The translations under genes and the position numbers were made by a program. Positions 19,978 to 56,456 of a stretch of DNA of 64,000 nucleotides are shown piece after piece (position 1 is the first letter of the stretch; every line of letters starts with the position of its first letter). The stretch is taken from assembly GCF_032062105.1 (NCBI RefSeq), contig NW_026925150.1, forward strand, positions 64,655 to 128,654, written 5' to 3'. The stretch is from Saccostrea cucullata (Eukaryota). Below the pieces are notes generated by a model. The model worked only from the letters and a program-made list of their open reading frames with translations. It made no database searches and had not been told where the DNA came from.

Positions 19978-21024
19978 TTTTTTTTTTTTTTTTTTGTTTT
20001 TTTTTCAATTTTCGTTTTCTTATCTGAAATACATTTGATATCCTGTCATCCTCTGTTCTATATATCATAATCATGACATAACATAATCTTAAAGAAAAAT
20101 CCTTAAGTTTGTTTTTATAATAATATTCCAGAATGTTCTTACCTGGAAATCGAATCTCACACCCTTGGAAATTCCAGCTTTCAATATGGAAGCTTTATTA
20201 ACAGGCACGTCACTGAATATATTATGATTAACATTTTGATGACCATGCTTTACTAGGATATCGACTATAAACATGACGAGTTGATTTTTTTTATATTGAT
20301 TATTACATTTATTGTATGGTATCTTTTGTTTAAGCGAAATTTGATTTTTTTTTATCATATTATTAGCGTTTAACACAAAGCCCATCCTAAGTAATGATTG
20401 CCCTGTGCACAGAGTGTCCCAGAATATATGACACAATTACATAATATTGAATAAAAACAAATACAATTGTACAAGGAAAACATTGCATAATTATACCGCC
20501 CAATCTAATTCACGCAATTTAACGGACACTGAAACATGTGAAAGAAACACAGTTTAAAAAAGTTCGTTCACTCTGAAAAATGCTATGGTAAAAAAATAAT
20601 GTTCTCTAAAGGATTTATTGAACAATTCTAATCTGCATTTTGGCAAGGAATAATTGGAGGAATTTCTAGTAGAGTTTTGTGAAATACATGTATTGCCTCT
20701 AATATCAGATACTATGTTTTGAATGTAAGTAGATACTAAATTGTTGTGTATTTTGTACATTGTTACTAGATTTGTTCGATTTCTTCTATTTTCCAATGGT
20801 TCCCATTCAGTTTCCAGATAAAGTGAATTTTTAGAAGCAATAAGCGTAAGACCAGTTACTATTCTAGCAGCAAATAATTGAACTTTCTCAAGCTTTTCAA
20901 TGTCTGCCTTTGAACATTCCGACCAAACTTCAACTGCATATTCCAGTTGTGGTCTGATAAAAGAAATATACATCTGGGACAAAATACATGTATCCCTTGA
21001 TTTGTATTTCTGGAAATGTATCAT
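19978..21024 (-). mobile_element. 3' fragment of a non-LTR retrotransposon (CR1/jockey-like RT C-terminal domain) ending in a poly(A) tail at 19978..20008 (seen as a T-run on the plus strand)
   Basis: ORF 20554..21024(-) 'IRPQLEYAVEVWSECSKADIEKLEKVQLFAARIV...WEPLENRRNRTNLVTMYKIHNNLV' is the conserved post-RT domain. ORF 20089..20436(-) continues it. A T17-T27 run lies at the 3' end. Confidence 0.7.
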
Positions 21025-36952: not shown

Positions 36953-37021
36953 ATACTTTTACTTCAAAATATAATTGGATACCTAGGTTTATCTCACACA
37001 AGGAAGTCTCTGCTTATAAAG
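36953..37021 (+). CDS. TELO2: TELO2 exon 6 (69 nt)
   Basis: Acceptor catttcag|, donor AAAG|GTAAAG. 'ILLLQNIIGYLGLSHTRKSLLIK' matches human '[23 protein letters not shown]'. Confidence 0.65.
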
Positions 37022-37189
37022 GTAAAGTGTACACCCTATATATATCTTCCTTAGTGTGCATGTATTTCTTTCTTTTTTTTTTTACACTATCTTGTATGGC
37101 AAGCAAGTGCATGTAAACTCAGATAAGGAATTTTTTCTTTGGATTTTTATTTGCCTTTTTATGATTGTTAGATGTTGAAGGAACTTTAT

Positions 37190-37655
37190 TAATAAATTTG
37201 TTTTATCTGTCTTAGTTGTTGAGGGAATTTCTGTTTTGTCTTTGTTAGCCATTGACATGATTGAGGGAGCTTCTATATTTTTTTTTACCCTTGTTAGATG
37301 TTGATAAGGACCTGTGTTTATTTTTAGATGTTGAGGGATTTCTCTCTATTTGCTTATAATTAGATGTTGAGGGATTTCTCTCTATTTGGTTATAATAAGA
37401 TGTTGAGGGATTTCTCTCTATTTGGTTATTTTTAGATGTTGAGGGATTTCTCTCTATTTAGATATTTTTTTGATGTTGAGGGATTTCTATCTATTTGGTT
37501 ATTTTTAGATGTTGAGGGAGCTTCTCTCTATTTAGATATTTTTTTGATGTTGAGGGATTTCTCTCTATTTGGTTATTTTTAGATGTTGAGGGATTTCTCT
37601 CTATTTAGATATTTTTTTGGTGTTGAGGGATTTCTATCTATTTGGTTATTTTTAG
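37190..37655 (+). repeat. Minisatellite (~36-37-bp unit, about 8-9 copies) derived from the intron 6 / exon 7 junction. Each unit carries 'tttttag|ATGTTGAGGGA'.
   Basis: 'ttatttttagatgttgagggatttctctctatttgg' is repeated. The final unit continues into exon 7 ('tttttagATGTTGAGGGAGCTTCTCTCTGTTTGGGGTGAC'). Confidence 0.85.
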
Positions 37656-37797
37656 ATGTTGAGGGAGCTTCTCTCTGTTTGGGGTGACAGCAGTGCCCTG
37701 AAGCACACCTCTGTGGAGCAGCATCTGTACATCACAAAGGCTCTATTTATAGGACTGGGATTCCTCAAAGAATCAGACAAGGCAGAAATCAGAGAGG
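37656..37797 (+). CDS. TELO2: TELO2 exon 7. Its acceptor (tttttag|ATG...) is the last unit of an intronic minisatellite derived from this junction.
   Basis: 'MLRELLSVWGDSSALKHTSVEQHLYITKALFIGLG...' matches human '[34 protein letters not shown]'. Donor GAGG|GTAAGT. Confidence 0.7.
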
Positions 37798-38016
37798 GTA
37801 AGTACTGATAGGGGAATCATGGTTAATGTGTACATGCAAGGACAGCAAGCAAATATGTGTGTTTTTGAAGGAATTTAATCTGACACTGTGACAGTTTCTC
37901 CAGACATTATCCATTTTGATATGTAATTGTAAAAGTAAATTTTATTTTTAAAGTTTGGGGTATTCAGTCTTAGTTAATCCAAAGAACAGGAGGCAGGTAG
38001 GGCTGTTCATGAAACT

Positions 38017-38133
38017 TTTTATCTCACAATCTAATTAAAATCAGCTTTCTTAGATCCGCACCATATTCACTCTGATTGCATACGTAAGAAGCAGAGTGGA
38101 TACGGCGCGGATCTAAGAAGTCTGAGTTTAATT
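38017..38133. repeat. Nested hairpin/MITE (~115 bp) in TELO2 intron 7
   Basis: 'acaatctaattaaaatcagctttcttagatccgc' is the reverse complement of 'gcggatctaagaagtctgagtttaattagattgt'. The inner part reads 'cactctg...cagagtg'. Confidence 0.7.
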
Positions 38134-38269
38134 AGATTGTATTGACACACTACTCAAAACCTTACTGTTATAGGAAATTTTATAAATACCTGTATAATTG
38201 TTGAACATGTATGTTTTAGAGATTTGATAATCCTCTTGTAAGAAATGAAGTTCTTTTTTTTGGTGACAG

Positions 38270-38406
38270 ATTTTATCCAGCTACTGATGCCTGGTATACA
38301 ATGTCACATTGCAAGTTCTGATCACAGAGTTCGGAAAGTTGGCATGACTCTAGCCGAGACCATGTCAGCTGTTCTAGATCCCAAAGGTCAACAACTAAAG
38401 TTTGAG
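38270..38406 (+). CDS. TELO2: TELO2 exon 8
   Basis: Acceptor ggtgacag|, donor GAG|GTAAGA. 'CHIASSDHRVRKVGMTLAETMSAVLDPKGQQLKFE' matches human '[35 protein letters not shown]'. Confidence 0.85.
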
Positions 38407-38923
38407 GTAAGAAGTAAAAATAATCATAAAGGACAAATAATCATTTTTTTTAGGCCAACACCAGTGATTATTCAGTTTATAATAATCAGTTATGATTTAT
38501 TGATAAAGGAAATTGGTATAACATATCTAGTTTTTTCCTTAAACAGAAATGTTGCACTACCCCAACCAGAATAGATTAATACACTGTACATGTAATTTAT
38601 TTATCAATTGTCACATTGAAAACATCTTCCTCAAACTTTCACTTTCACAAGTCAACTTAGAAAATATTTTATATCAATGTTTAAACATGTATAGTAAAAC
38701 TCTGTGCACAAGAAAATTTGAATTGAAAATTTTTTTATTGTTTAAAAGTACATGTGTATTACAATTTTGTATACTTATTCAATATGTAAGTAATTGAAAT
38801 AAACTGATCAAAATTATGCCATTGGCTGCTGTGCATATGTAAATGCATATATAACTATGTAAACAAATATCTGAATAGTTTCAAATTGGTTTATGATTGT
38901 ACATTGTATGCTGTTTATTTCAG

Positions 38924-39003
38924 TTTCCCAGAGATGAGGAAGTAGAATACTTGGTTTCCTTGACAACACCACCACAAGATCCTGGGCTACAGGGTGTTAC
39001 AAA
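38924..39003 (+). CDS. TELO2: TELO2 exon 9
   Basis: Acceptor tttatttcag|, donor AA|GTTAGT (weak). 'FPRDEEVEYLVSLTTPPQDPG' matches human '[22 protein letters not shown]'. Confidence 0.6.
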
Positions 39004-39302
39004 GTTAGTGTCTCTCAATTGACAGAAAAATTATCATGCTGTAAATAATTCAAAAACAATTTCAATTTGGATATAAGAAAGTTAAGAGAATATATCAATG
39101 TTGTTTAGTTGGACATAGGACTGCAAGGTTTGATTTGGTTATGTACTGTTTTTAACAAGTTTAAGTATAATTTTTTATACTCTCTGAAAATTTATTCTGA
39201 AAGCTAGGTGTAATTTTCACATTGTGAAAAAGAGCAGGTTAATTTTTACAGAGTTAAATTATTAGTTACATGACTTTAGTTTTTTTCTTCATATCATTAC
39301 AG

Positions 39303-39413
39303 TGGGATGAGTGATGTACATATTACTCCAGCAACGAGTCAAGAAGACGTTCTATCAGAGAGTAGAAATGAAGAAAGGGAGACTAATCTACAGATTGACC
39401 CAGATTTAGATAG
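39303..39413 (+). CDS. TELO2: TELO2 exon 10
   Basis: Acceptor atcattacag|, donor AG|GTTTGT. It ends in '...QIDPDLD', matching human 'GSDSDLD'. Confidence 0.7.
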
Positions 39414-39693
39414 GTTTGTCCTTATTTTTATACCAAGATATTGATTTAAAGATTTTATTTTTATGACAATATTTTTATCATTGATATTATGTTATTAAAC
39501 ATGTACATGTAATATCTATATGCTCTTTCAATCTATGTATAAAATTCGATTATAATTTTGCATGTTTTTCTTTTTAAAAAACACTGTAACAGTTGCTCTG
39601 TATCCTTATTTGATGGAGCTAATATGGACTAAAACAATGGTTTGCATTTTATTATGTATAGTATTATATTCTGTTTATTAAGATGAATATTGA

Positions 39694-39791
39694 TATTTTT
39701 CAGTGATGATGATCTAGTGCCATACGATATGTCTAACGACAAAAAGTTGACAAAGACCAAACAGCCTAAATACATCAGAGACTGCATGGAA
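39694..39791 (+). CDS. TELO2: TELO2 exon 11, containing the conserved acidic 'SDDDLVPYDMS' motif
   Basis: 'SDDDLVPYDMSNDKKLTKTKQPKYIRDCME' matches human '[30 protein letters not shown]'. Acceptor tttttcag|, donor G|GTATTT. Confidence 0.9.
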
Positions 39792-39918
39792 GGTATTTTA
39801 GAAACTCCCCACCCCCTCCATTTTCCACTCATAATGTAATTTTAAACATTATTTGCAGAGTATGCTCTTTGAAATTTGAATTTTATAAGTTCTTTGAATT
39901 TCATTTTTTTATTTGTAG

Positions 39919-40010
39919 GATTAATCAGTGTTGATGATCCAGAAAGATTAGAAGTGTGTCTAGGTGTCACAGAAGCTTTGATCCGGAGGAATCCAGATGG
40001 GCTCTTGGAA
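39919..40010 (+). CDS. TELO2: TELO2 exon 12
   Basis: Acceptor atttgtag|, donor GAA|GTAAGC. 'GLISVDDPERLEVCLGVTEALIRRNPDGLLE' matches human '[31 protein letters not shown]'. Confidence 0.75.
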
Positions 40011-41185
40011 GTAAGCCATTTGTTATTAAAGTCTTTATTCTAAATTAGTCAAGATATTTCATCCATTTTTAAAATTTCACATTTATTATTTACTTTTCAA
40101 ATGTTTTAAGAGAAAAAATATTAGTTTGGTAAAAAAGAAAATATCTTTCTTTTTAAAAATACATTGAAGCATCAAGTTTAACACTTTATATCCTATGTAG
40201 ATTGGTATTCCAACCTATTTAGAACAGTACTCTTTGGCCTTCATAGACTGGTTCTTTTTGACCTACTTAGACTGATACTCTTTGACCTACTTAGACTGGT
40301 ACTCTTTGACCTACTTAGACTGGTACTCTTTGACTGGTACAATATACTCTTTGACCTACTTAGACTGGTACTCTTTGACCTACGTAGACTGGTGCAATTT
40401 GATAAGTTTTTTTGACATGGTGCACTTTGCTATCACCTGGCAAGAACTTTTTTTCTTAACACGTTATTAAAAATAGTGCTTATGTACATTGACAAGTTGG
40501 CGATATCCATTGTTAATTTTAAACTGCTAATAACAAAAATCTCACACATACACGTTGTTTTAACTTTAAATCAACAGAGGTTACGAAAAATGAGAAAATA
40601 AACAATTAAAACAGAGAGAAAACAACAACAAACGTGCACTACATTTGCATAAAAACAGCTCGTACTATGAATTACTCGGTTTTGTAGGTTCAAATCATAC
40701 CACGGTGGCCCGTAAAATTTACGTGAACATTTCATGTATATAACATTTGTTATATATTGTGCCATTTATATTGGGAAAAAGTTAAAAACAAGGTAATTAT
40801 TTATAAAAGTGCACTGTGAAGAAAACTGATATCAAATTATATAATATTATTCAATAATCATTTGTAAGTTGAATTTGTAACAAAGTGATCTTGCTATAGT
40901 CAAAGAATAAAAATTTGAATACAATTTAAATCAATTATGATTCAATTTAAATATCAATGAATTAAAACCGATATATCTTTAAAAAAAATGTTTTTCCTCT
41001 CCTGATCGATTGGCTAAATTTCAGAGCCATGGCTCAAATTTTTTAACCTCAAAGAAACGTTAAATATTTTTTAAATTCTTATTACTGGATTATTTCATTC
41101 CCTTAACATAGATGTTGAATTTCTCCTAAAAAAAAGTTTTATAATCTCAATGCTTGTGTATTTATTTTGTATTTAAATGTTTCAG

Positions 41186-41235
41186 GTATCCACCACAGAT
41201 TTGACTCACACACTGGTGGTTTTGCACCAGAGCAG
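41186..41235 (+). CDS. TELO2: TELO2 exon 13 candidate (50 nt). The sequence matches, but its exit phase (2) is incompatible with every acceptor of the next recognised exon.
   Basis: Acceptor atgtttcag|, donor CAG|GTAATT. 'VSTTDLTHTLVVLHQS' matches human 'VSVELAKVLLHLEEKT'. Confidence 0.45.
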
Positions 41236-41728
41236 GTAATTATTTCTGTGGAGAAAACTATTATTGACAAGCAGTGTATTTTGCATAGTTTGTAAAAGAA
41301 AATCTTTGTGGTTAAAGTTGAACAAAACGATGCTACTATCATGAAAATCGAATAGTTTTATTCTTAAGTGAAATTATGAGTAGAAAGGTTGAGGGATGTA
41401 AACAGTCCATCTAACATTCTATTTCCCTTTTAAGCAGTTAAGCATTTTAGCATTCACAACCTGTTCACAATGTGCCATGTCCCTGTATACAGTCATATAG
41501 TATATTTTTTATTCAAGTGTATTTGACCACAGTTTTTTTCTGAGACTGACTTATCATGTGCATGTGTAATCATTAAATTATGTAATTTCTGTATTTTGTA
41601 ATTTTCTTTTTATCATCAGCAATTCTACAGTTTTATAGAATTGTACATGATAATAATATTAATTTATAATATGCAGATGTATTACATTTTAATCTTTGGC
41701 AAACCTAATTAATATCTATCATTAATAG

Positions 41729-41985
41729 GTCTTAGGAGCAGCAGCCCAGGAGCTTTCTCAACCCTCAGAATCTCAGCCAATAGAAAAAGAGAAACCGTCC
41801 AATAAAATTACGGCACTGGATTCAGAGGATTCTGCTGAGGGCTGGAGAGAAATCGTCAAACAGAGGATAGAGAGTAAGACTAGGAGATTTGGGAGAGGAT
41901 CCAGAAAAGAGGTGGTGACTACTAAAAATAAGTTTTCTCCTGTGGCAGGCTGCTTCTTTTACCCGCTCATGGCCAACTATGACAG
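41729..41985 (+). CDS. TELO2: TELO2 exon 14
   Basis: 'VLGAAAQELSQPS...EGWREIVKQRIESKTRRFG...KFSPVAGCFFYPLMANYD' matches human 'VLTLAAQELSRPG...SDWRVVVEERIRSKTQRLS...RFNSVAGHFFFPLLQRFD'. Donor ACAG|GTAGAG. Confidence 0.8.
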
Positions 41986-42782
41986 GTAGAGATTTTGTTG
42001 TTGTTATCAGTTTTTTGCATCTTGTGTATTTATTCATTGAGAAGTATATGTGATTTATCAACAAAAACAAATGTTGGAATTTATTGTATAGAAGTTGTTG
42101 TCTAAAGTTATGTATTTATAATTTAATTTTATTTGTATTCTCGCCTCTCATTGGTTGATTTCCAAAAAGGAACGCATAACATTTTGTATAATCTTCATTA
42201 AAGTGACACAAATTAAACTACACAGTTGTAATCATCATATCCATGCAATCCCATTATTTTTTAATGAAATCTGGAAAATTCAGATTTAATAGCTCTATCT
42301 TTAAAAACACTTCTCTCTACCTCATTAAACACACATCATGGCTGCTAAATTTTGTATGTAACCTCAAAAAGCTTCAAATCACTTCCGTTACTACGGTAGG
42401 TGCGGTAAATTTATACTTGTAAAAAGCAACACAATTTTACACCGAAAGTTGCTTAATTACTAGTATAATTTTAAAATTAAATTATAAGGAATGACTTTGA
42501 TTTGATGGCCATATTATCTTGTATAATCTGGTTGTGTATACACTAGGAGTCAGTTTACGCTTTATAATCCGCAAAGCGTTATTTTTTTAATGAAATCCTT
42601 CAATTCAGGTGTAAGGACCTTGTTCAAATTTTAGGCATGATTATTTCATTTGGTAAAGTCATATGTACAAATTTTGTATGAACTTCAAAAAGTGACAAAA
42701 AATTCAGCACCTGTAGGTGCAAAATTTATACTTGTTCATAGATCATTTGATGTATCTCTTTTATTTGTTGCTTGAATTTATA

Positions 42783-42882
42783 GGAAAGAGAATACCTTTG
42801 ATTTGATGGGAGAGGACAGCCTTGTATTAGGCAGGCTTGTGTATACACTAGGAGTCATTATCTATGCTGCCATTAACACCCC
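42783..42882 (+). CDS. TELO2: TELO2 exon 15
   Basis: '[33 protein letters not shown]' matches human '[33 protein letters not shown]'. Acceptor gaatttatag|, donor CA|GTGAGT. Confidence 0.85.
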
Positions 42883-43058
42883 AGTGAGTCAGCAATATTA
42901 CATTATTCAATTTGATGTTCAGCTTTTCAAATTTTAGGCATGTTTTTACATTTGGTAAAGTCATATGTACCAGGCATTTTTTAAATACAGATCTTTTTTG
43001 TTTTTAAATTCAGAAAACATAATAGAATATTTATTTTGTTTATTGTTTACTTTTGCAG

Positions 43059-43123
43059 GCAGTTAAACAAATGGCTGACAGATTGCTGGAGTTTTTGTGG
43101 GTCATTAGATTCCATAGTGATGT
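43059..43123 (+). CDS. TELO2: TELO2 exon 16
   Basis: 'AVKQMADRLLEFLWVIRFHSD' matches human 'VAMGKALLEFVWALRFHID'. Acceptor ttttgcag|, donor GT|GTGAGT. Confidence 0.85.
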
Positions 43124-43204
43124 GTGAGTATAGTGTTTACTTTTATAGGCTGTGGAAAGGAAATACTTGTATTTATTTATTATAAATGTAACAGTCATTA
43201 GTTG

Positions 43205-43290
43205 GTGAAATACCAAGTCTCAAAAAGGACTCAAACCCAGGGCCTCTGGCATACCTTGCCAGCTCTTTAACCAACTGAGCTTTCTAAGAG
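43205..43290 (-). mobile_element. tRNA-derived SINE-like copy (minus strand) in TELO2 intron 16
   Basis: The reverse complement 'agctcagttggttaaagagctggcaaggtatgccagaggccctgggtttgagtc' matches the 44540 copy. It has a box A 'TAGCTCAGTTGG' and a box B 'GGTTTGAGTCC'. Confidence 0.6.
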
Positions 43291-43351
43291 ATTTATCATG
43301 GAAGATACAGATTTACTGATACTAAAGGCATCAATTCTTTTGATATTTCAG

Positions 43352-43467
43352 GAGTGTTCGCCATGCTGTTTTGTTTGCTGTTTCCATGGTGATTCTATCT
43401 GTACCAGGACATATTTTACTGACAGACCTACAAAGTGAAATAATGGAGACCAAACACTGGCTGGAGG
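43352..43467 (+). CDS. TELO2: TELO2 exon 17
   Basis: 'SVRHAVLFAVSMVILSVPGHILLTDLQSEIMETKHWLE' matches human '[37 protein letters not shown]'. Acceptor atatttcag|, donor G|GTAAAT. Confidence 0.85.
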
Positions 43468-43852
43468 GTAAATTAACGGACTCTGAAAAATTAAAGAGAA
43501 TGTTTTTGTTTTTTAAAATTTAAAAAATCATCTTGAATTAGAATTTTAATGATATTCATGTTTGTAAATGTCCAGAAACCTGCATGAAGATTTTCTTTTC
43601 CAATGCTTTTTTTAAAAATATCATTTTTGCATGGAATGAACAGAGTTTAGGTAGATTTAACATTTTAAGATAAGGAAGTTAGGGCTACATGGACATCAGG
43701 CAAGGGGGCTACATGGACATCAGCCAAGATAGCTCTGTGGTAAAGCACAGGGGCCTTGGGATTTTTTTTCCCAGATCAGCAACATATTATTTTTATTCGA
43801 TCCTTCATTCCTAGCACAAAGGGATTATCATACTAAAAAGATTTTCTTGCAG

Positions 43853-43935
43853 ATGTTGTGGAGAAAGATGTCAATGCTGAATCTAAGAAGATGGCCATAC
43901 AGAGCCTTGTTCTCTTGGAAAATGTCATCAAACAG
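43853..43935 (+). CDS. TELO2: TELO2 exon 18 (penultimate). The terminal exon is not confidently located. One candidate is 44714..44743, which would add 'EFTKGADLT*'.
   Basis: 'DVVEKDVNAESKKMAIQSLVLLENVIKQ' matches human '[27 protein letters not shown]'. Acceptor tttcttgcag|, donor CAG|GTCGAG. Confidence 0.7.
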
Positions 43936-44146
43936 GTCGAGATCAGTTTCTTATTAAATAAAACAGTAAAATTAAGAAAAAAATGTTTTTTTGAAAACGT
44001 GAGGATCGAGGTCTTAAAAATTTTATCATTATTGTTCTTTTTCATCCTATCTGAAAGTGAAAGGAAGTTGTTAAACAAATGTCTTTGTCATTGAGTTCAC
44101 AGTTGCATGAAAGTTAATCAATATAGATTACTTAAGAAATAAGATG

Positions 44147-45089: not shown

Positions 45090-46130
45090 CAAAATGCTAC
45101 TCCTCCTACAATTTTAGTCTGATTTCAATATTACTTGGCACACAAGTAGACTACACTAAGATACATAGAATAGTGCATCGGTTTTTAATTTCGATGAACG
45201 GTGTTGCCATGGTTACTAAAAATAGAATTTTCTATGAAATTCCTTAAAAACGCTACTCCTTCTACAGTTTTGGTCTGATTTCAATATTACTTGGCACACA
45301 AGTAGACTACACTAAGATACATAGAATAGTGCATTGGTTTTTAATTTCGATGAACAGTGTTGCCATGGTTACTAAAAATAGAATTTTCTGTGAAATTCCT
45401 TTAAATCGCTACTCCTTCCACAGTGTTGATCTGATTTCAATATAACTTGGTACACAAGTAGACTACACTAAGATACATAGAATAGTGCATCGGTTTTTGA
45501 TTTCAGTAAACGGTGTTGCCATGGTTACTAAAAGTAGAATTTTCTGTGAAATTCCTTAAAAACGCTACTCCTTCTACAGTTTTGGTCTGATTTCAATATT
45601 ACTTGGCACACAAGTAGACTACACTAAGATACATAGAACAGTGCATCGGTTTTTAATTTCGATGAACAGTGTTGCCATGGTTACTAAAAATAGAATTTTC
45701 TGTGAAATTCCTCTAAAACGCTACTCCTTCTACAGTGTTGATCTGATTTCAATATAACTTGGTACACAAGTAGACTACACTAAGATACATAGAATAGTGC
45801 ATCGTTTTTTGATTTTAGTAAACGGTGTTGCCATGGTTACTAAAAATAGAATACTCTGTGAAATTCATTTAAAACGCTACTCCTTCTACAGTTTTGGTCT
45901 GATTTCATTATAACTTGGCACACAAGTAGACTACACTAAGATACATAGAATAGTGCATCAGTATTTGATTTCGATGAATGGTGTTGCCATGGTTACTAAA
46001 AATAGAATTTTCTGTGAAATTCCTTTAAAACGCTACTCCTTCTACAGTATCAGTTTGATTTCAAAATAAGTTGGCACACAAGTAGACTACACAAAGAAAC
46101 ATAAAATAGTGCAATGGTTTTTGATAAATA
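45090..46130. repeat. Satellite / tandem array, ~155-bp unit, about 6.5 copies, in the TELO2-MVP intergenic region
   Basis: The unit 'gctactccttctacagttttggtctgatttcaatattacttggcacacaagtagactacactaagatacatagaatagtgcatcggtttttaatttcgatgaacggtgttgccatggttactaaaaatagaattttctgtgaaattcc' is repeated. Confidence 0.9.
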
Positions 46131-48078: not shown

Positions 48079-48186
48079 CTAGTTATTTTTACCCACAATT
48101 CCATTGGCTGTGTTGAAGAGGTTGATAGGACTGTTACCGTCAGTGATCAAAACACTCTCCATTCCAAGAGCTTTCAACAGATTTAC
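48079..48186 (-). CDS. MVP: Major vault protein, terminal coding exon (stop TAG at 48079-48081)
   Basis: '[35 protein letters not shown]' matches human '[32 protein letters not shown]'. Acceptor taatacag|. Confidence 0.85.
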
Positions 48187-48551
48187 CTGTATTAAAAATA
48201 AAAGGAAATTGTCAAAATGGGATATCATATTCAACGTATAATACAGCTGCTGAACTTTGCCAACTCTCAAATTCCAAATACCACGGATATGTCAAAGTGA
48301 TTTGAAAGTCTGTATCATTTTTTCAAAAATTGAAGTATTTTACCCCAAATATCTAAAATCCTTGAATCATTTTTTTTTCTCTTGATCTAATAAAATTTGC
48401 ACGGGGTAACAAGAACATTAATTTTAAATTTATTTATATAATGAGTTTCCATAAGTACATGTATTTACATTAATTTTGTATCTTCATGTAATAACGTTGC
48501 ATAAATTCATGTATTTGAATACAAGTTGGGATATGAAAAACCTCTCCATAC

Positions 48552-48614
48552 CTGATAAGCTTTGGATTGCAATCGCAATGGCCATTTTAGCATGAATCGA
48601 CATGTACTTCGATC
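48552..48614 (-). CDS. MVP: MVP candidate exon (63 nt, phase-neutral) in the divergent cap-helix/tail region. Protein similarity is weak, so it may be absent from the main transcript.
   Basis: Acceptor cttgag|, donor CAG|GTATGG. 'DRSTCRFMLKWPLRLQSKAYQ' ends in Q before V of the last exon, as human has ...EMQ|VKLL. Confidence 0.3.
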
Positions 48615-48948
48615 CTCAAGAAAATGTGTAGAAAATGATAAGAACAAAATAACCGCAGTGTTGTAAAAAAGAAAACACAGCACTGCTATTTTTACAGACT
48701 TAGCATATTACAATAATAATGCCTTTCTCTCTCTTGATCTATTCATTCATAACCCTTTACATTTGATTCCTTGCCTGAAAAATGTGAAGTCCTCAACAAA
48801 ATGAAGAAGAAAAAAAAAAATGATGTGAAAATAACTGTGTTGTACACCAGGTGATAAAACAAATTATAAATGTTAACTACACAGTTTCTAAAGTATTAAT
48901 TACAAAACTCAATATTGGCCATTTTTTTTCTTTGTGGACCTAACTCAC

Positions 48949-49013
48949 AGATTCCTGAGCAGCTAGCTGTGCATTGTGTTCAATTTCTGCTGCCTCTGCT
49001 CTCAATCTGGCAG
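48949..49013 (-). CDS. MVP: MVP exon (cap-helix region)
   Basis: Acceptor tttccag|, donor TCT|GTGAGT. 'AARLRAEAAEIEHNAQLAAQES' is coiled-coil-like and follows exon 21 in phase. Confidence 0.65.
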
Positions 49014-49872
49014 CTGGAAATGGAAAATAAAAAAAAGGGAATTTATTCATGTAAACAGATGCCGTTTTCAAAATATGATTTTTGTAGAAATTTTAAGCCT
49101 TAACAGCAACATCTTTTGGGTTCCCTTTTCCATGTTTTAAAATCAGTTGTGCTTAAGGGTGGTTTTATGCCCATGTTCCAAGGTCAACCTACATGGTAAC
49201 TGATATCACTCACCTCTCCTCTTCCAACTTAATAGTAACAAACCTCACACTTAGGGATCATTTCCATCTGAGGCTAAATGTACAATTTTTAAACAAGACA
49301 CACTTGTCAATCTCACCCTCTTTTGTCAATGATGATCCTCTCATACTATTTCATTTGGTAAGCAGCGGGTTAGCTGGCGGGGTGCATTGTGTAGATCACT
49401 ATATTTCTGACACCTTATTTTTCGCTCTCATTGATCTGATTAGCAAGACAAAATTTTCACAAATTGTGGTGATTGCTTTATATAATCTAAAGGAATGCTT
49501 TTATACGCGAGAATTAAATTTTCCGAGCACACTGTCTCGCATAATTGCATGAAAATAAAGTTTTTGCGAATAAAAAGTGATTTACAGTATTTTGGCTTCT
49601 GAATCGCTATAATAGTCAGTACTCTTATTAGTGTTCATACTGTATTCAAAGAGCTGAAGTAATGTCTGCTAAAATAAATAATGTCAAAATCATTGGCATA
49701 CATTTGAGCAGACAAAAGGCCAAATTTTACACCCGCCAAGAAAACCCTAAAAGGTAACTTTTGTCAATCACCTAGTTAGCCTGTGCATGGATATGACATG
49801 TAGCAATCTCTCAAAGTTTACCGTTACCATCTGCGGTTTAGACTTCTGGAGCCAGTTTTAAATGCTACTCAC

Positions 49873-50099
49873 CTTCAATCTCGCTCTCACACTCAATGAT
49901 GATCCTCTCGGCCTGAGCCTGGGCCTCTGCCTTGGCCTGCCCTGTAGACTCGACGGCAGCAGTGATAGCCTGGAGCTCCAGCAGTTTGGTTCTCTCCTTC
50001 TCAGCCTCTTTCTCGTTGTACAGTTTTTGTCGTTCTAATTCCCCCCGCGCTATCTGTTCATTCCTAGCTGCCTCATGTGATGCTGCTGCCTCAATGGAG
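49873..50099 (-). CDS. MVP: MVP exon 21 (cap-helix coiled coil)
   Basis: '[67 protein letters not shown]' matches human '[69 protein letters not shown]'. Donor G|GTGAGT. Confidence 0.9.
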
Positions 50100-50367
50100 C
50101 TAAAAAAGCGTAAATTTTTTATTTGTTGAGAGTCACTTTTATAATTTTCTTTGAATTTATTGTAATTTTTTTGTATATGAATTTCATAAGAGTTATCTCC
50201 CTTAAAATGTGTTTTTTAGTACATTTTTCATTTCCATGAGAAAATTTGAAAATATACTTATTCAAATACATAATGCAAGCTTGATGAAAAGTGGACATTA
50301 AATGGATTTTCTTTTAGAAATAAATTTCTATAAAGATTTTGGATTAATTAATGTGTCTGGGTCTTAC

Positions 50368-50468
50368 TTAGTGGAGATCTCTATGGCCAGTTGTACAGAT
50401 TTACTGAGGCTGTCTCTCATCTTTACGTCTACTGGTTCTATACTCTGGATGTCCATGCTGCTTAGTAC
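50368..50468 (-). CDS. MVP: MVP exon 20
   Basis: '[34 protein letters not shown]' matches human '[34 protein letters not shown]'. Confidence 0.9.
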
Positions 50469-51053
50469 CTAAAATGGATATAGGCATACAGTGTATTCCA
50501 ACAAAAATGGGAATACAATGTTTTCCAATTGCTGGATATACATTGCCGTATTTACACTGTGTGAATGTAATTGAAAATATCATTGTCAACATATACAATC
50601 ATGCAAATCATTTTACATTTATCTCAATTGCAGTTTGATTTTCTTAATGCAGGGTCTTTAAAAGAGAAATTCTGTCTACCAAAGAAAAGTAGCAATTTTA
50701 AGGGGTTAATTAATGTCATTCATAAAATTAGTGATTTAGATACATAACACTTCACTGTGAAGTAGCATAAATAAAAACAAAAGATGAAACAATACACCTG
50801 TAGACTTTTATTCATGTGCGAAAAATATTCATGAGTTTTGTGACTTATTTTCAGTTGGGATATACATTGCCGTATCACTGTGTGAACCATTTATTTTGCT
50901 TTGCTTTTGTAGAAAATGTTTCTTTATTTGCGAAAATTAATCATTGCCTATTAATTTCAAACTGATGAATCGCTAATAATAGTTGGTTTACAGTATCTAA
51001 ATAATGATTTATAAATAAATTTCCAGACATATTTTATCAAATTTGACACCTAC

Positions 51054-51196
51054 CAGGTTATTTTCAGGGAACCTGACTTCATTATTCATCTGACCTTTGG
51101 CATTTAGACCAAACACTGCTGTGGTGAGTACTTGGTTGGAATGTCGATGGAAGTCATCAAACGTGACCTGAGCCACAGCAGCTCTGATACGAGCAC
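51054..51196 (-). CDS. MVP: MVP exon 19 (shoulder domain)
   Basis: 'ARIRAAVAQVTFDDFHRHSNQVLTTAVFGLNAKGQ...RFPENNL' matches human '[33 protein letters not shown]...VFPQNGL'. Confidence 0.9.
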
Positions 51197-51516
51197 CTGT
51201 AAATTAATTAAAATAAAATCTAATTTTGTAATTTGATCGATTGAATGTTTTATCAATAACAATCAAAAAGACTTCTACTTTTTTCAGACTGACTGGATTT
51301 TCAAGATGCAACAACTCTTATTTAAATGGAAATACCAGGCCTGAAAATATTTTTATGGAGAACAATAGTCTTTTTAGGTAGATGTATCAGGTGATAATTT
51401 TTTCACTCTCTTACATGTAGGTCTCTTTGTTCACCAATATTTGAGGTGTAATAAGGTGTAATAAATAGATGTCCAGAAATTTTTTTTTTTTTTAACATCA
51501 AATTACCCAATCTTAC

Positions 51517-51598
51517 CCATTTGTTTAGAAGCAAATCCAATGAAGTCTGGCACAGCAAACAATTTACATTTCTCTTCTTCTGGACCATCAAGGTCATA
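51517..51598 (-). CDS. MVP: MVP exon 18
   Basis: 'YDLDGPEEEKCKLFAVPDFIGFASKQM' matches human '[27 protein letters not shown]'. Confidence 0.85.
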
Positions 51599-51733
51599 CT
51601 GAAAAAAAAGACAAATTATATATTAAAAATATTAAAGCGTCTTCTTCCAATAAAAAAAAAAACCAACTTATTCATAAAATGCTCTCTTTTGCCTATATAT
51701 ATATAGATATGTATATATACACTTCATGTTTAC

Positions 51734-51793
51734 CTCAAAATGATTGTTAAACGCCACTTGGATTCTTAAACGAGCATGGTCTGATGTTTCCAC
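51734..51793 (-). CDS. MVP: MVP exon 17
   Basis: 'VETSDHARLRIQVAFNNHFE' matches human '[20 protein letters not shown]'. Confidence 0.9.
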
Positions 51794-52082
51794 CTAAAGT
51801 ATTTATTAGGAATTATAAAGCCTTGTGTAATGCAGGGGAAAAAATAAATCAAATAAATAATTTTCATAAAATTGTAAAATTGAAATATCCTTTTGAGATT
51901 TAAAGAGTTTTCAATACATTGCAAATAAATATTTTTTCATTTTTTTATGCTTTGATATACATGTACATGTAATGGGATACATTATTGTTAAACATAGCAC
52001 ATACAAACTGTGTGTAAAATTTTAAATGTTCAAGTCTAAACTTTAAATTTATGTATATATGTATATAATTATACGAATCTAC

Positions 52083-52162
52083 CTCTAATATGTCTGTTAT
52101 AAAATCTGGCCCCAACATAAGGCACAGAGACTTTAATGAATTGGACTTCTTTGGTTTTCCAG
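52083..52162 (-). CDS. MVP: MVP exon 16
   Basis: 'AGKPKKSNSLKSLCLMLGPDFITDILE' matches human '[29 protein letters not shown]'. Confidence 0.9.
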
Positions 52163-52478
52163 CTAAAATAAAAGCATATTGATCAATTTTCATTTTTCTA
52201 GGTCTTATTTTGTTTTTTAAATACTGTTGACGTACTATTTTTCACGGGGTCATAATTCCAAGGAATCTCAATTTCTCTTGAATCAGCGGGTAGAAAATTA
52301 TGCAAATTTCTTAGCCCCTCACTCTATTCCTTACAAGTATTTTGAATATGATGGGACAAATTTCCAAGGATAATTTGTGACCACATACATAGTGTAAATT
52401 AATACCAAGTGGAAAAAGTACTTCTACAGTAAGTTTAAATTGACAAAAAAAAATCAACATGAACTGGAGATTGCTTAC

Positions 52479-52632
52479 CACTGAGGCTTAGAACATTGAA
52501 ATTCTCGTGTGGTCCCAGAATGACTAGATCTGGACCAAACACCACTCTGGCCGTCCTCTCCAGGTAATTATACACCTGAACAGCTGTGTTACCAGGGCAA
52601 CGGTAGGTCACCACCCTCGTCTTGTTTCTGCC
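52479..52632 (-). CDS. MVP: MVP exon 15
   Basis: '[51 protein letters not shown]' matches human '[52 protein letters not shown]'. Confidence 0.9.
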
Positions 52633-52840
52633 CTGAAAAATGATCAGATTTTTCTAAAATTCTTAACAAAGAAAAATAATAAATAGATAAAATTTTCAAA
52701 TTTAATTTTTAATCCCATGGTAACAGTTAATAACAATTAGCATTTAATCTAAAATAAAACTTCATGATTGAACTTACGAGCACAAAAAAAATTCAGTGGT
52801 AATTGTATTAAAAATTGTTGTAAAATGTGGTAATATTTAC

Positions 52841-52919
52841 CGCTAATACGTGGGGGTCAATGGACTGTTCAAAATAAGCCATCTTTCTTATATCTCCTGT
52901 ACCTAGCCCTCCTCCTTGT
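52841..52919 (-). CDS. MVP: MVP exon 14 (variable linker)
   Basis: Acceptor catgcag|, donor GCG|GTAAAT. Phase-consistent. It supplies the ~26 aa that sit between 'EELLNK' and 'RNKTRVV'. Confidence 0.7.
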
Positions 52920-53204
52920 CTGCATGTGGAGTGAAATAGATAATTATTAAGTAAAAGACTAAATATTATCTCATCATGTTATCATTTGCATTAAAGTCAT
53001 TCAATATATCAGGTTTCAATGTAAAAGCTTGTTATCCTGGTCCTGAGCTATTGAGACATGATACTGCATATAAAGTAGAATTTTTAGCAAGAACTCAATT
53101 TTCAATTTGCATAATTATAGAGGGTGCAGAGATCAGTAAAATTGAATATCGCTAACAGTTAACTGTGTAATATTGAAGAAGACAGGTAAATTAGGTTAAC
53201 CTAC

Positions 53205-53299
53205 TTGAGTAATTCTTCTGTAACTGCGGGTAGGTCTTTCTCCCACAGCTCCTCAAATGCTGTCAACATATAGGACTTAGGACCCATTTCTGCCCTCAC
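53205..53299 (-). CDS. MVP: MVP exon 13
   Basis: 'VRAEMGPKSYMLTAFEELWEKDLPAVTEELL' matches human '[30 protein letters not shown]'. Confidence 0.9.
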
Positions 53300-53384
53300 C
53301 TGTTTAAAATAAATAGGACTTCATTTGTGATTTGGTTTACTATACATATGTATATACATGTAAATTTCTGTTTAATATTTTTAC

Positions 53385-53445
53385 CTTTCCTGTCTGCAAG
53401 TCTTTGATATATATCCCTTCATTTTTGCTCAAAGGAATCTTGGTT
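53385..53445 (-). CDS. MVP: MVP exon 12
   Basis: 'TKIPLSKNEGIYIKDLQTGK' matches human '[20 protein letters not shown]'. Confidence 0.9.
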
Positions 53446-53803
53446 CTACAAAATAAAATGAAAAATGGAGATTTATTACAAGATTCTATTAGAGCCACAG
53501 CTGCATCTGTTTTTTTTTTTAGTTCTTTTGTATTCTTTGACAAAGAAAGTTGAAAGAAATGTTAGAGAAATTCATTATTGCTGGGGGGGGGGGGGGGGTA
53601 TGCTTTATGCTTGTACATGATCAAAATAAACACACATACATCAATCTTTTTAACTGAAATTAGAGACAGTTGAATGTTACAAGTTCTAGAAAAAATTTTT
53701 AAAAATGCTTTTTAAGTAATGTTTTAAGTTATATAGTCATCAGAGCAAAATGACCACTGTCTATATTCAGTACTAGATGACAGTAGCATATATTGTTTTT
53801 TAC

Positions 53804-53891
53804 CTTGTTTTGACGACCTTGACCTCTATCGGGGGTATGTACTCCAGGGGTCCTCTCAACATCCATACATCTCCTGGACTCCTCTTCTTAC
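53804..53891 (-). CDS. MVP: MVP exon 11
   Basis: '[29 protein letters not shown]' matches human '[27 protein letters not shown]'. Confidence 0.85.
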
Positions 53892-54393
53892 CTACAGTGT
53901 ATAAAACATAGAATAGGTTAATTTTGAGATTTGACCCTTCTTTTGGTAATTTGCAGCATTACATTGGACTATACAAAATCTGTCTCGACTCCACATTTCT
54001 ATGGTATTTGAGACAATGATGTTAAAGATACAAGTTCAACTAAACCTTGTTGAACTTAAAGGCAACTTCTGAAATACAGCATATTGTAAAATCACATACT
54101 TTTATGGGGTCAAATTTTCGTGGTTTCAGGAAAATCTATTAGTTCTTGGGGATTTAATTTCGTGGACCATGAATTAATGAGCATTTATGTAGGTAACATT
54201 TTACATTTCATTGTGGTCATGAATTCGTGGGTCTCGTCATACCTTGAAAAAAAAAACAAAAATTGAACCCTCATGAAAATGTGATTTCACAGTATATGCA
54301 CATGCAGTATTGTTTGCTCCACTGGAAAATAACTCCCCAAACCAGTTTATTTATTTTGTATTTGATGAGATGATTATACACTAGCTGTCTCAC

Positions 54394-54495
54394 CTTTGAA
54401 CATGGTGTCTCTGTATTCTTCCTCTGCTTGTAAAACAATGGCGTCGTCTTCTCCCAGAATGTGGACATTTTGTACTCCTTTCTCTAAGCTCTCCC
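54394..54495 (-). CDS. MVP: MVP exon 10
   Basis: 'GESLEKGVQNVHILGEDDAIVLQAEEEYRDTMFK' matches human '[37 protein letters not shown]'. Confidence 0.85.
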
Positions 54496-55115
54496 CTACA
54501 CAAAACAAAAGTTTTCTCTCTAGTCTTTGTTACTTGGAAACATTATACATCAATTTTATTTCCAAAGATAAAAAATAAATATAAAAAATATCAATATTAT
54601 TTTATATATATATATAGAAACATGTTACATGCTGGAATATAAAAAAACTATTTTTAAATGTAATATACATTAATTTTATTTTGAAAATTTGTCTTAAGGT
54701 AAAAAAAAAAAACTGCATGCCCAATTTTTTTTTAAATTTTGCATAACTTAAAATTAATTATGATAGAGAAAAGCTATAGGACTCAATTATTCATCTCCCT
54801 TTCTTGTACAGGGACGTTTATAACTCTTAAAAAAAAATCAATTTTATATGTAGAAATGTTGTTTTGTATGCTTTTTTTTGTAATTGTGTGCTGATGAATA
54901 TAAAAATCGATCATTTCAATTTCAAATTGGTTTAAGGGAACTCAACCTATTGTGTACTTGCACTTTAAATGCAAGAACTTCATTTTAATTATTTTGAAAT
55001 TTTGTCTAAGGAAAAAATTCAGAAACCTGCATGCCCAATTTTTTTTTTTTAAATTTTGCATAACTTAAAATTAATTATGATAGAGAAAAGCTATAGGACT
55101 CAATTATTCATCTCC

Positions 55116-55181
55116 CTTTCTTACCTGGGTGGAGGAAGAAGCTACAGGGCCCCACCCTCAGTTCCCGTTTATAACTCTTAC
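55116..55181 (-). repeat. Tandem duplicate of the last ~45 nt of MVP exon 9 plus its GTAAGA donor (an intronic pseudo-exon end). A further degenerate copy lies at ~54790-54830, inside a ~320-bp local tandem duplication.
   Basis: On the minus strand '...CGGGAACTGAGGGTGGGGCCCTGTAGCTTCTTCCTCCACCCAGgtaaga' occurs twice, at 55182-55236 and 55120-55176. The 54655-54812 segment matches 54975-55130 apart from an internal deletion. Confidence 0.85.
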
Positions 55182-55323
55182 CTGGGTGGAGGAAGAAGCT
55201 ACAGGGCCCCACCCTCAGTTCCCGTTTTCCCAACTGTGGCTTCCCTTTCTTGTCTACCACATCTTTAATGACACAGTACTGTCCCTTCCACAAAACCTTG
55301 ATGGTCTCCGCTGATGTCACTTC
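55182..55323 (-). CDS. MVP: MVP exon 9. Its 3' end plus donor are tandemly duplicated immediately downstream in the intron (55116..55181).
   Basis: 'EVTSAETIKVLWKGQYCVIKDVVDKKGKPQLGKRELRVGPCSFFLHP' matches human '[45 protein letters not shown]'. Confidence 0.85.
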
Positions 55324-55665
55324 CTGTTTGAAGAAAAAAAAATTATACACATGGTGCCTGGATGAATTTAGAACTTCCTGCTGAACAAAATTTAAAATAT
55401 ATTCTCTCACAGGTTTATTTTTGCCTTAGGTTTATAATTTTCAATCTACAACCCTTGCTAGTTGAATATCCTCTCCTTTCAAAGAATTTACATTGGCAAA
55501 ATTTTTCCTGTATACAGCATATAAATTAATGTACAATATGTAGCTTTACGACTTATTTTTTTTTCACAGGATAATAATCTTTCTTTGTACCAGCATCTGC
55601 GTGCAGCACTGATTTAATGCTCACAAACTTCCTTAATTAAAAAACCCCATCAAGATTCTGCTTAC

Positions 55666-55732
55666 CACACCAATTTCTGGATAATAGTGATCAGTCTCAG
55701 CTCCCGTCAACAGCCACTGCTCTCCAGCCATT
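55666..55732 (-). CDS. MVP: MVP exon 8
   Basis: 'MAGEQWLLTGAETDHYYPEIGV' matches human '[24 protein letters not shown]'. Confidence 0.85.
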
Positions 55733-56237
55733 CTAATAAATTTATAATAAGTCTAGTTAGTAACTCAATTAATTAATTCAATCTTTACTGCTGTCCAGCT
55801 TTAAATTTGTTCAAACAAAAGAAAAACCAGCACCTTTCGAAACTTTCTTTTACAGCGCATCATGTTTATTCATCATTTTTTTATGACAAACTTTACTTCT
55901 GAATAAATTCTGCACTCAATATAAACAGAGTCCTCAACAGAAAAAATTACTAGTGATGAATGGATGTTAAAGGGACAAATCCCAAATAAATGTTATATCA
56001 AATAAATGTTGTAAGTTCTACTATTGGAAAAAGGTATAAATATAATGAACAGATCTAGTTCATCTAAAAGAATCCATAAACAATATAAACAATTATATGA
56101 GGAGGGCGAAAACAAACATTTCTGGAAATTCCAGAGGTGGGATCAGGTGCCTTGGAGGAGTCAGCTTCCCCCTTTTCACCGGACCCACTTGCCTTCTATA
56201 AAAATTTCCTTAAATCGTGACTGTCACTATCAAAGTA

Positions 56238-56453: not shown

Positions 56454-56456
56454 TAC

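What the first reader, a model, noticed from the sequence alone, without database searches (positions are those of the whole stretch)
37190..37700. Intronic minisatellite made of tandem copies of the exon 7 splice-acceptor junction
About eight to nine copies of a 36-37-bp unit end in 'tttttag|ATGTTGAGGGA'. The last unit is the real acceptor plus first ~30 nt of TELO2 exon 7; the exon's protein match to human '[13 protein letters not shown]' begins exactly there. Every unit is therefore a potential cryptic 3' splice site. The unit length is not a multiple of three, so use of an upstream copy would frameshift. This is a clean example of a splice junction seeding a tandem array, or of an array ending in an exon.
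Basis: seen in the sequence. Interest (0 to 1): 0.65.

Follow-up and report, generated by a model that had tools for sequence, protein, structure and literature searches.

The report
Splice-junction minisatellite in TELO2 intron
The last stretch of one TELO2 intron plus the first ~26 bases of the next exon has been copied head-to-tail about 14 times, leaving decoy splice sites upstream of the real one; this kind of repeat is already known (amphioxus "mirages", several human genes) and is most likely a tolerated by-product of tandem duplication.

Summary
Tandem Repeats Finder reports a 36-37-bp array of 10 copies at 37318-37682, with 73- and 147-bp higher-order periods. Four older, degenerate copies lie upstream from 37172. 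The last unit runs into a TELO2 exon (37656-37798). The acceptor at 37655|37656 is supported three ways: a gap-free alignment of the exon 6-exon 7 join to human TELO2, an AG at the same position in six related lineages, and codon-like conservation of the first ten codons.

Two details need correction. Only 5 sites, including the real one, read tttttag|ATGTTGAGGGA. Most units are 36 bp, which is a multiple of three. Even so, all 34 upstream AGs lead to a premature stop.

Relatives show that the exon sequence came first. One relative has an 85-nt intron with no array. Another lineage has its own 79-bp array at the same junction.

This is a known kind of repeat: amphioxus "mirages", and donor-side minisatellites in human F7, IFI6 and CBS. 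A second case lies in the same window, a perfect 57-bp duplication of an MVP exon-donor junction. Random placement of tandem duplications roughly accounts for both.

Splicing behaviour and copy-number variation could not be tested. Interest is modest.

The parts
36953..37021 (+). TELO2 coding exon upstream of the array (69 nt, ILLLQNIIGYLGLSHTRKSLLIK), ending in phase 0 before gtaaag
   Evidence: Sequence. Orthologous exon in L001 at 325-393, tblastn E=9e-10. Aligns to human TELO2 about 313-335.
37022..37655 (+). Intron that hosts the array (634 nt, GT...AG). The 484 nt from 37172 onward are junction copies.
   Evidence: The orthologous intron in L001 is 85 nt with no copies.
37172..37327 (+). 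Four old, degenerate junction copies starting at 37172, 37216, 37249 and 37298 (30-49 nt each). The acceptor-like ttgttag at 37165-37171 is probably the original intron end.
   Evidence: (families D2, D3).
37328..37655 (+). Nine well-preserved upstream units of 36-38 nt, each made of about 26 nt of exon-derived sequence followed by about 10 nt of intron end (ttatttttag). Unit starts: 37328, 37364, 37400, 37436, 37473, 37509, 37547, 37583, 37620.
   Evidence: TRF, unit alignment A2, motif counts.
37399..37529 (+). Older copy of the youngest duplication (a 147-bp block of four units).
   Evidence: Identical to 37546-37676 except for one mismatch (37473 A versus 37620 G).
37546..37676 (+). Younger copy of the 147-bp block. 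It contains the real acceptor and the first 21 nt of the exon.
37628..37655 (+). 26-nt AG-free zone, polypyrimidine tract and authentic acceptor AG (37654-37655). The branch point is expected in or within about 15 nt upstream of this zone.
   Evidence: AG table. The AG-exclusion-zone rule comes from PMC1431707. The branch point itself is inferred, not mapped.
37656..37798 (+). TELO2 exon (143 nt, MLRELLSVWGDSSALKH...EIRE, then G|gtaagt). The first 21-27 nt are shared with the array.
55119..55227 (-). Separate second case in the neighbouring gene: a perfect 57-bp x 1.9 tandem duplication of the last 45 nt of an MVP exon plus 12 nt of intron including the donor GTAAGA.
   Evidence: (MVP, PDB 3gf5_A, E=4e-6).

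Best explanation
This is a junction-spanning minisatellite of the 'mirage' type. A short segment covering the 3' end of the intron (about 10 nt with the AG) and the first ~26 nt of the next TELO2 exon was duplicated in tandem. It was then amplified and partly homogenised by slippage or unequal exchange.

A tandem duplication across a junction always leaves the last copy joined to the rest of the exon, so the gene stays intact. The upstream copies become intronic pseudo-acceptors, and the intron grew from about 150 nt to 634 nt.

The productive mRNA must use the last AG (37654-37655). Any use of an upstream AG gives a transcript with a premature stop, which nonsense-mediated decay would be expected to remove. 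The array is therefore most likely neutral or slightly costly, not functional.

Shown here: the array anatomy, the acceptor position, the direction of origin (exon first), and the stop codons. Inferred: the duplication mechanism, which AGs are actually used, the branch point location, and removal by NMD.
For: - Array and higher-order structure.
- The unit is confined to this locus within the window.
- TELO2 identity and a gap-free exon 6-exon 7 join to human residues ~312-353.
- Acceptor AG and phase 0 at the same position in window, L001, L011, L012, L013, L016 and L026.
- Coding-type constraint on the first ten codons (variable sites 4/4/8 by codon position; L5, L6, V8, W9 invariant).
- Relatives with the same exon start but no junction copies (L001 with an 85-nt intron, also L016 and L013).
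- All 34 upstream AGs give stops.
- An independent assembly of another lineage shows the same kind of array at the same junction, with a different unit (79 bp, at least 3.4 copies, 94%).
- Degenerate copies sit at the outer (5') edge and near-identical copies inside, as described for mirage clusters in PMC3087553.
- A rough neutral expectation for the TELO2-MVP region is about 1.5 junction-spanning arrays, and 2 are seen. This is my own arithmetic: periods of 17 arrays times about 64 junctions in 26.5 kb (exon counts estimated).
Against: - There are no transcript data, so use of the last AG is inferred from coding logic and conservation only.
- The pseudo-acceptor at 37509 is identical to the real site from about -110 to +21. 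Local sequence therefore cannot explain why the real one would win.
- If the first-transcribed or first-scanned AG is favoured, the array could be costly to an essential gene, which sits uneasily with 'neutral'.
- Finding an array at the same junction in two of five lineages could hint at something more than chance. My rough estimate of that coincidence is about 0.1.
- Copy number in a single assembly may be wrong.
Confidence: 0.8

Rival explanations
1. The array is functional. The pseudo-acceptors would act as decoys that divert a copy-number-dependent fraction of TELO2 pre-mRNA into stop-containing, NMD-degraded transcripts, so tuning TELO2 dosage (regulated unproductive splicing).
For: Every upstream AG gives a premature stop. 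Four pseudo-acceptors are indistinguishable from the real site over the usual scoring window. A second lineage has an array at the same junction.
Against: The array is absent from L001, L016 and probably L026 and L013. Unit length and breakpoints differ between the two lineages that have it (36-37 bp against 79 bp). Copies decay at the array edge. Amphioxus mirages are reported not to disturb splicing (PMC3087553, PMC3902484). There are no expression data.
Confidence: 0.08
2. The direction is the reverse: a pre-existing intronic minisatellite was partly exonised, so the exon start derives from the repeat.
For: From this sequence alone, an array ending in an exon looks the same whichever came first.
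Against: The first 27 nt of the exon are orthologous, at the same position and phase, in array-free relatives. They encode residues conserved with human TELO2.
Confidence: 0.02
3. The array, or its copy number, is an assembly artefact: over-expansion or collapse of a repeat.
For: Only one assembly is available. The youngest 147-bp block is 99% identical to its neighbour. ORFs from the window were not found in other public assemblies, so there is no independent copy of this locus.
Against: Units carry many fixed differences and an ordered higher-order pattern, with degenerate flanking copies. That is not what mis-assembly usually produces. The same kind of array is present in independent assemblies of a related lineage (L011, L012).
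Confidence: 0.07
4. The upstream copies are alternative 3' splice sites that produce protein isoforms.
For: There are many AGs preceded by pyrimidine tracts.
Against: No upstream AG yields an open frame into the exon. The same holds for the L012 array.
Confidence: 0.01

Closest known systems
[quoted passage not shown] 2002 as cited in PMC3087553; also PMC3902484)
   Same: Head-to-tail units that span an intron-exon boundary. BflGb6 is likewise acceptor-side, with the 3' end of the intron plus the 5' part of the exon. Many but not all units keep AG/GT. There is homogenisation inside the cluster with divergent edge copies. Unit sizes overlap (Adh3 10-72 bp). In Adh3 the structure is present in two species.
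   Different: A different phylum (this window is not amphioxus; probably a bivalve, though that is a guess from memory) and a different gene. In amphioxus, length polymorphism, somatic instability and undisturbed splicing were shown experimentally. None of these could be tested here.
Human donor-side junction minisatellites: F7 IVS7 37-bp VNTR, IFI6 (6-16) intron 2, CBS IVS13, LMNB2, PDGFA intron 4 (PMC1557585)
   Same: The monomer spans an exon-intron boundary, so the authentic site is reiterated as identical pseudo-sites. The F7 monomer size (37 bp) and copy number (5-9) are very similar. The MVP duplication at 55119-55227 is exactly this donor-side type.
   Different: Those are 5' splice sites where the authentic site is the first copy, consistent with 5'-to-3' scanning. 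In TELO2 the sites are 3' splice sites and the authentic one is the last copy, so the F7 scanning rule does not explain the choice.
Intron gain by tandem duplication of an exonic AGGT segment (PMC3265369, PMC4974935, PMC2891723)
   Same: Tandem duplication of gene-internal sequence carrying splice signals.
   Different: No new intron is created. The intron already exists at the same position in array-free relatives, and the array only lengthens it.
NAGNAG and other short-distance tandem acceptors (PMC3250501)
   Same: Repeated acceptor AGs that can compete.
   Different: Those are spaced 3 nt apart and give in-frame single-codon isoforms. Here the spacing is 36-37 nt and all alternatives end in stops.

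Membership tests
Mirage / junction-spanning minisatellite | Head-to-tail array of minisatellite-sized units (about 10-160 bp) | tested here: met
   TRF period 36 x 10, also 73 and 147; 13 upstream copies plus the exon copy.
Mirage / junction-spanning minisatellite | The unit contains both intronic and exonic sequence of one real splice junction | tested here: met
   Unit = ~26 nt identical or near-identical to the exon start + ttatttttag. Exon boundary fixed. Identity of the 147-bp block runs to exon position +21.
Mirage / junction-spanning minisatellite | The exon sequence predates the array, so the authentic junction is the terminal copy | tested here: met
   Array-free orthologous junctions in L001, L016 and L026.
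Mirage / junction-spanning minisatellite | Many but not all units retain the splice signal | tested here: met
   6 of the 9 well-preserved upstream units end in AG, 4 of them in tttttag; 3 end in TG.
Mirage / junction-spanning minisatellite | Length instability or polymorphism between alleles | tested here: inconclusive
   No second copy of this species' locus was found. In the other lineage, L011 and L012 (exon 97-98% identical) differ strongly in array state, but they may be different species.
Mirage / junction-spanning minisatellite | Regular splicing is not disturbed | not testable with these tools
   No transcript data. Only the coding logic says the last AG must be the productive one.
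Donor-side junction VNTR (F7 IVS7 type) | The first monomer spans the exon-intron (5' splice site) boundary | tested here: not met
   The TELO2 array is at the 3' splice site. The feature is met instead by the MVP 57-bp duplication.
Intron gain by tandem duplication | The intron is absent from relatives and is bounded by the duplicated AGGT | tested here: not met
   The intron is present at the same position and phase in all six related loci. L001 has it at 85 nt without any duplication.
NAGNAG tandem acceptor | Two acceptor AGs 3 nt apart giving in-frame isoforms | tested here: not met
   Spacing is 36-37 nt and all alternatives end in stops.

The most novel reading that the evidence does not exclude
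The array would be a copy-number-tunable decoy: identical pseudo-acceptors capture a fraction of TELO2 pre-mRNA and send it to NMD, so repeat length sets the dosage of an essential chaperone gene. Its appearance at the same junction in two lineages with different units would then reflect selection or a sequence-driven hotspot. The purine run GAGGGA and the pyrimidine run TCTCTC flanking the acceptor form a hairpin (z = -4 for two units), which could drive such a hotspot. A milder version is that this genome, like amphioxus, is unusually rich in junction-spanning repeats; both host genes in this window have one.
Probability: 0.07. Interest if true: 0.65.

Novelty: new member of a known kind. 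Interest (0 to 1): 0.3.

Why it matters
It gives a natural acceptor-side counterpart to the human F7 IVS7 donor array. Four pseudo-acceptors match the authentic site over the usual scoring window (20 intronic plus 3 exonic nt), and one of them (37509) is identical from about -110 to +21, yet only the last copy can give functional TELO2 mRNA.

This makes it a ready test of how 3' splice sites are chosen when local sequence cannot decide. The candidate factors are branch-point position, exon definition from downstream sequence, and kinetics.

It also extends the 'mirage' phenomenon, so far discussed mainly for amphioxus, to another invertebrate lineage. The array accounts for about 76% of this intron's length (484 of 634 nt), showing that such repeats can lengthen an intron substantially. 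For genome annotation, these arrays are a trap for splice-site predictors.

Tried and rejected
- Looked for the same species in public assemblies using two exact window ORFs (37656-37808 and 38245-38574). Neither is on record, so no copy-number polymorphism could be measured.
- Scanned JGI metagenome contigs with exon-7 peptide patterns. 118 pattern matches, none a true relative.
- Tried to identify the organisms behind the related contigs by searching papers for the run and project accessions. Nothing useful came back. The 'bivalve' guess rests only on ~33% G+C and repeat-encoded peptide motifs I recall, and it is untested.
- Used the last protein search on MVP, hoping for named close relatives. 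Only distant hits (<=74% identity over partial stretches) were returned.
- A possible single degenerate junction copy in L016 seen by eye (TTGAGAGATGTT...) did not exceed shuffles (z=0.3). A weak match in L026/L027 (z=2.2 and 3.6) is marginal and I do not count it.
- Rejected the idea that the 79-bp units of L012 form mini-exons using the GAT|gtaatg donor-like site. The intervening 'intron' would be only 37 nt, and all frames hit stops.
- RNA folding does not separate the real acceptor from the pseudo-acceptors. The same hairpin forms at both.
- Canestro et al. 2002 (PMC117041) is not held in the library, so it is cited only through PMC3087553.

Full report

Yes. Reading 36900-38100 shows the repeated motif directly. 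Tandem Repeats Finder reports one array at 37318-37682 with period 36 (10.0 copies, 86% matches). The same array also scores as period 73 (4.9 copies, 91%) and period 147 (2.5 copies, 92%).

The 10-nt core TGTTGAGGGA occurs 11 times in the 64-kb window. All 11 lie between 37217 and 37666 on the + strand, against 0.12 expected from shuffles. The 18-mer TTTTTAGATGTTGAGGGA occurs five times, against 0 expected. The last of these is the exon junction. The unit is therefore local and is not a dispersed repeat, at least within this window.

A unit-by-unit listing and alignment gives:
- nine well-preserved upstream units starting at 37328, 37364, 37400, 37436, 37473, 37509, 37547, 37583 and 37620, with lengths of 36, 37 or 38 nt;
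- four older, degenerate copies starting at 37172, 37216, 37249 and 37298;
- the exon copy at 37656.

**2. What gene and which junction?**

The 143-nt exon 37656-37798 translates to MLRELLSVWGDSSALKH...EIRE. It matches human TELO2 residues 336-376 in three PDB entries.

A concatenation of candidate + strand exons between about 31990 and 44000 matches full-length human TELO2 (7f4u_A) at E=1.3e-111. In that alignment a small 69-nt exon (36953-37021, ILLLQNIIGYLGLSHTRKSLLIK, ending in phase 0 before gtaaag) joins to 37656. The join runs without a gap against human ...[39 protein letters not shown].

The intron that carries the array is therefore 37022-37655 (634 nt, GT...AG). By my tentative count this is the seventh coding exon. 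That count is not verified: my fourth exon is weak and untranslated exons are unknown.

**3. Evidence from relatives.**

Protein searches returned only ORF fragments called on short contigs from public read sets and metagenomes. Their DNA could be fetched. They fall into five lineages besides the window:
- L001-L010;
- L011 and L012;
- L013-L015;
- L016-L025;
- L026 and L027.

Exon identity to the window is 82, 81, 78, 79 and 65% respectively. The first four lineages and the window are about equally distant from each other.

In all of them an AG sits immediately before the codon that aligns with the window's first codon, and the donor is at the same place. Across the six lineages the first ten codons vary at 4, 4 and 8 sites for codon positions 1, 2 and 3. 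L5, L6, V8 and W9 are invariant. These bases are therefore coding.

This settles two points. First, the acceptor at 37655|37656 is the functional one. Both are out of frame, and both would remove conserved codons. Second, the exon sequence is older than the array. L001 has the same two exons separated by an 85-nt intron with no junction copy. L016 and L013 show none either.

**4. Anatomy and history of the array.**

Each unit consists of about 26 nt that match the exon start (ATGTTGAGGGA[T/GC]TTCTCTCTATTTGG) followed by the last ~10 nt of the intron (TTATTTTTAG).

The leftmost copy keeps the unique upstream intron: ...tttttatgattgttag|ATGTTGAAGG at 37172. The original intron was therefore about 150 nt, and the array added about 484 nt.

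Units alternate between a ...TTTGGTTATTTTTAG form and a ...TTTAGATATTTTTTTG form, which gives the 73-bp period. Four units form the 147-bp period.

The youngest event is a 147-bp duplication. 37399-37529 equals 37546-37676 except for one mismatch, and the right end of the identity lies at exon position +21. The pseudo-acceptor at 37509 is thus identical to the real one from roughly -110 to +21.

Degenerate copies at the outer edge and near-identical copies inside are the pattern described for mirage clusters in amphioxus (PMC3087553).

**5. Consequences for splicing: computed results and inference.**

There are 34 AG dinucleotides upstream of the real one in the intron. Joined to the phase-0 end of the upstream exon, every one of them meets a stop codon within 48 codons.

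The four tttttag pseudo-acceptors lie 73, 147, 220 and 328 nt upstream. The one at 147 nt is in frame, yet it stops after eight codons (MLRELLSI*).

A general reason is that the acceptor's own TAG is in frame with the ATG that follows it. Any in-register read-through therefore terminates at the next unit. The stated reason, a unit length that is not a multiple of three, is wrong for six of the nine well-preserved upstream units.

The last upstream AG is at 37626-37627, which leaves a 26-nt AG-free zone before the real AG. By the AG-exclusion-zone rule (PMC1431707) the branch point used for the real site should lie within that zone or up to about 15 nt upstream of it. That places it inside the last one or two units. 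Those units are themselves repeated, so each unit may be a complete 3' splice-site module.

Local sequence cannot explain the choice of the last copy. Only sequence beyond exon position +22 differs. Which AGs are actually used, and whether NMD removes the products, is inference.

Two adjacent units fold into a hairpin that encloses the acceptor (-19.4 kcal/mol, z=-4.06). The same hairpin forms at the real site, so it does not discriminate between them.

**6. A second array at the same junction in another lineage.**

L012 carries at least 3.4 copies of a 79-bp unit at 94% identity, running off the contig end. The unit is 39 nt of intron end (...tgtgtgtgtag) plus the first 40 nt of the exon. All of its pseudo-acceptors also give stops.

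L011, whose exon is 97-98% identical to L012, has one degenerate copy and a remnant of another interrupted by an insertion. The self-similarity z-scores are 16 and 8.

The unit length (79 against 36-37 bp), the exon breakpoint (+40 against about +26) and the intronic part all differ from the window's array. The two arrays are therefore separate events, even if an older common seed cannot be excluded with a star-like 143-nt tree.

**7. A second case in the same window.**

On the - strand, 55119-55227 is a perfect 57-bp x 1.9 duplication. It consists of the last 45 nt of an exon plus gtaagagttata, including the donor.

The exon belongs to major vault protein (PDB 3gf5_A, E=4e-6). MVP-like exons run from 48091 to 60535 on the - strand.

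Fifty-seven nt is 19 codons with no stop, so use of the second donor would insert 19 residues.

The rest of the window (1-31000) is made of transposon fragments. Both host genes in the window therefore carry a junction-spanning duplication.

**8. Is this more than chance placement?**

This is a rough estimate of my own. The 17 arrays with period >=10 in 31.5-58 kb have periods summing to about 617 nt. With about 64 splice junctions in those 26.5 kb (exon counts estimated), random placement of the founding duplications predicts about 1.5 junction-spanning arrays. Two are seen.

If about 3% of junctions carry such arrays, finding a second one at this junction among four other lineages has a probability near 0.1. 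No special mechanism is required.

**9. Comparison with what is known.**

[quoted passage not shown] They have since been reported in amphioxus troponin C, globin (BflGb6 acceptor-side, BflGb9 donor-side) and PGBD5 genes. Units range from 10 to 160 bp. The arrays show length and even somatic instability, and RT-PCR indicates normal splicing (PMC3087553; PMC3902484).

In humans, donor-side arrays whose first monomer spans the exon-intron boundary are known in F7 (37 bp, 5-9 copies), IFI6, CBS, LMNB2 and PDGFA. In F7 the most upstream site wins by 5'-to-3' scanning (PMC1557585).

The TELO2 array meets the structural criteria of a mirage. Polymorphism and undisturbed splicing could not be tested. 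It is not intron gain by duplication, because the intron pre-exists. It is not a NAGNAG-type site either.

**10. Verdict.**

- The best explanation is a tolerated junction-spanning minisatellite (confidence 0.8).
- It is a new member of a known kind.
- Its main value is as a natural acceptor-side test case for splice-site choice, and as a hint that such arrays are not confined to amphioxus.
- Interest is 0.3.

Noticed in passing
window 55119-55227 (- strand): A perfect 57-bp x 1.9 tandem duplication of the last 45 nt of a major vault protein exon plus 12 nt of intron including the donor GTAAGA. This is a donor-side junction duplication like human F7 IVS7. Fifty-seven nt is 19 codons with no stop, so the second donor would add 19 residues in frame.
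   Followed up: partly
window 48091-60535 (- strand): The neighbouring gene is MVP (major vault protein), convergent with TELO2 (+ strand, about 31990-44000). The two 3' ends are about 4 kb apart, and a 156-bp x 6.6 satellite (45091-46125) lies between them.
   Followed up: partly
L012 1-271; L011 80-356: A related lineage has its own array at the same TELO2 junction, with a 79-bp unit and at least 3.4 copies. The closely related L011 has only degenerate copies, one of them interrupted by a ~105-bp insertion with inverted-repeat ends (about 126-232).
   Followed up: yes
window 37547-37619 and 37616-37700: The purine run GAGGGA of one unit and the pyrimidine run TCTCTCTATTTGG of the preceding unit pair to form a hairpin that encloses each acceptor (two units: -19.4 kcal/mol, z=-4.06). 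This could favour slippage or mask the sites, but the same hairpin forms at the real acceptor.
   Followed up: partly
window 35982-36652: A 166-bp x 4 satellite (92%) sits inside the preceding TELO2 intron, next to a repeat-derived ORF (35699-35863, ...KAQVSFSDHPVSVVRPSVC...). The motif resembles repeat ORFs I recall from bivalve genomes. This is the only, and untested, basis for guessing the organism.
   Followed up: no
window 15374-15792 and 16653-17046: Two arrays of the same 22-bp unit (19 and 18 copies) lie in opposite orientation about 860 bp apart, just downstream of Tc1/mariner-like transposase ORFs (13988-15009). They may be the repeat-bearing ends of another mobile element.
   Followed up: no
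window 1-31000: There is no host gene here, only transposon fragments: LINE-like endonuclease/RT ORFs at 1010-1612 and 20554-21024 on the - strand, and the Tc1/mariner ORFs on the + strand.
   Followed up: no
L026 595-615 and L027: A weak match (AAGATGCTGAGTTTAAGAGG) to the exon start lies about 55 nt upstream of the acceptor in the most distant lineage (z=2.2; 11 of 300 shuffles reach it). It may be an eroded old junction copy or chance.
   Followed up: partly
window 40213-40393: A 24-bp x 7.7 minisatellite lies in a later TELO2 intron, about 200 nt downstream of the exon ending near 40000. It does not reach a junction.
   Followed up: no
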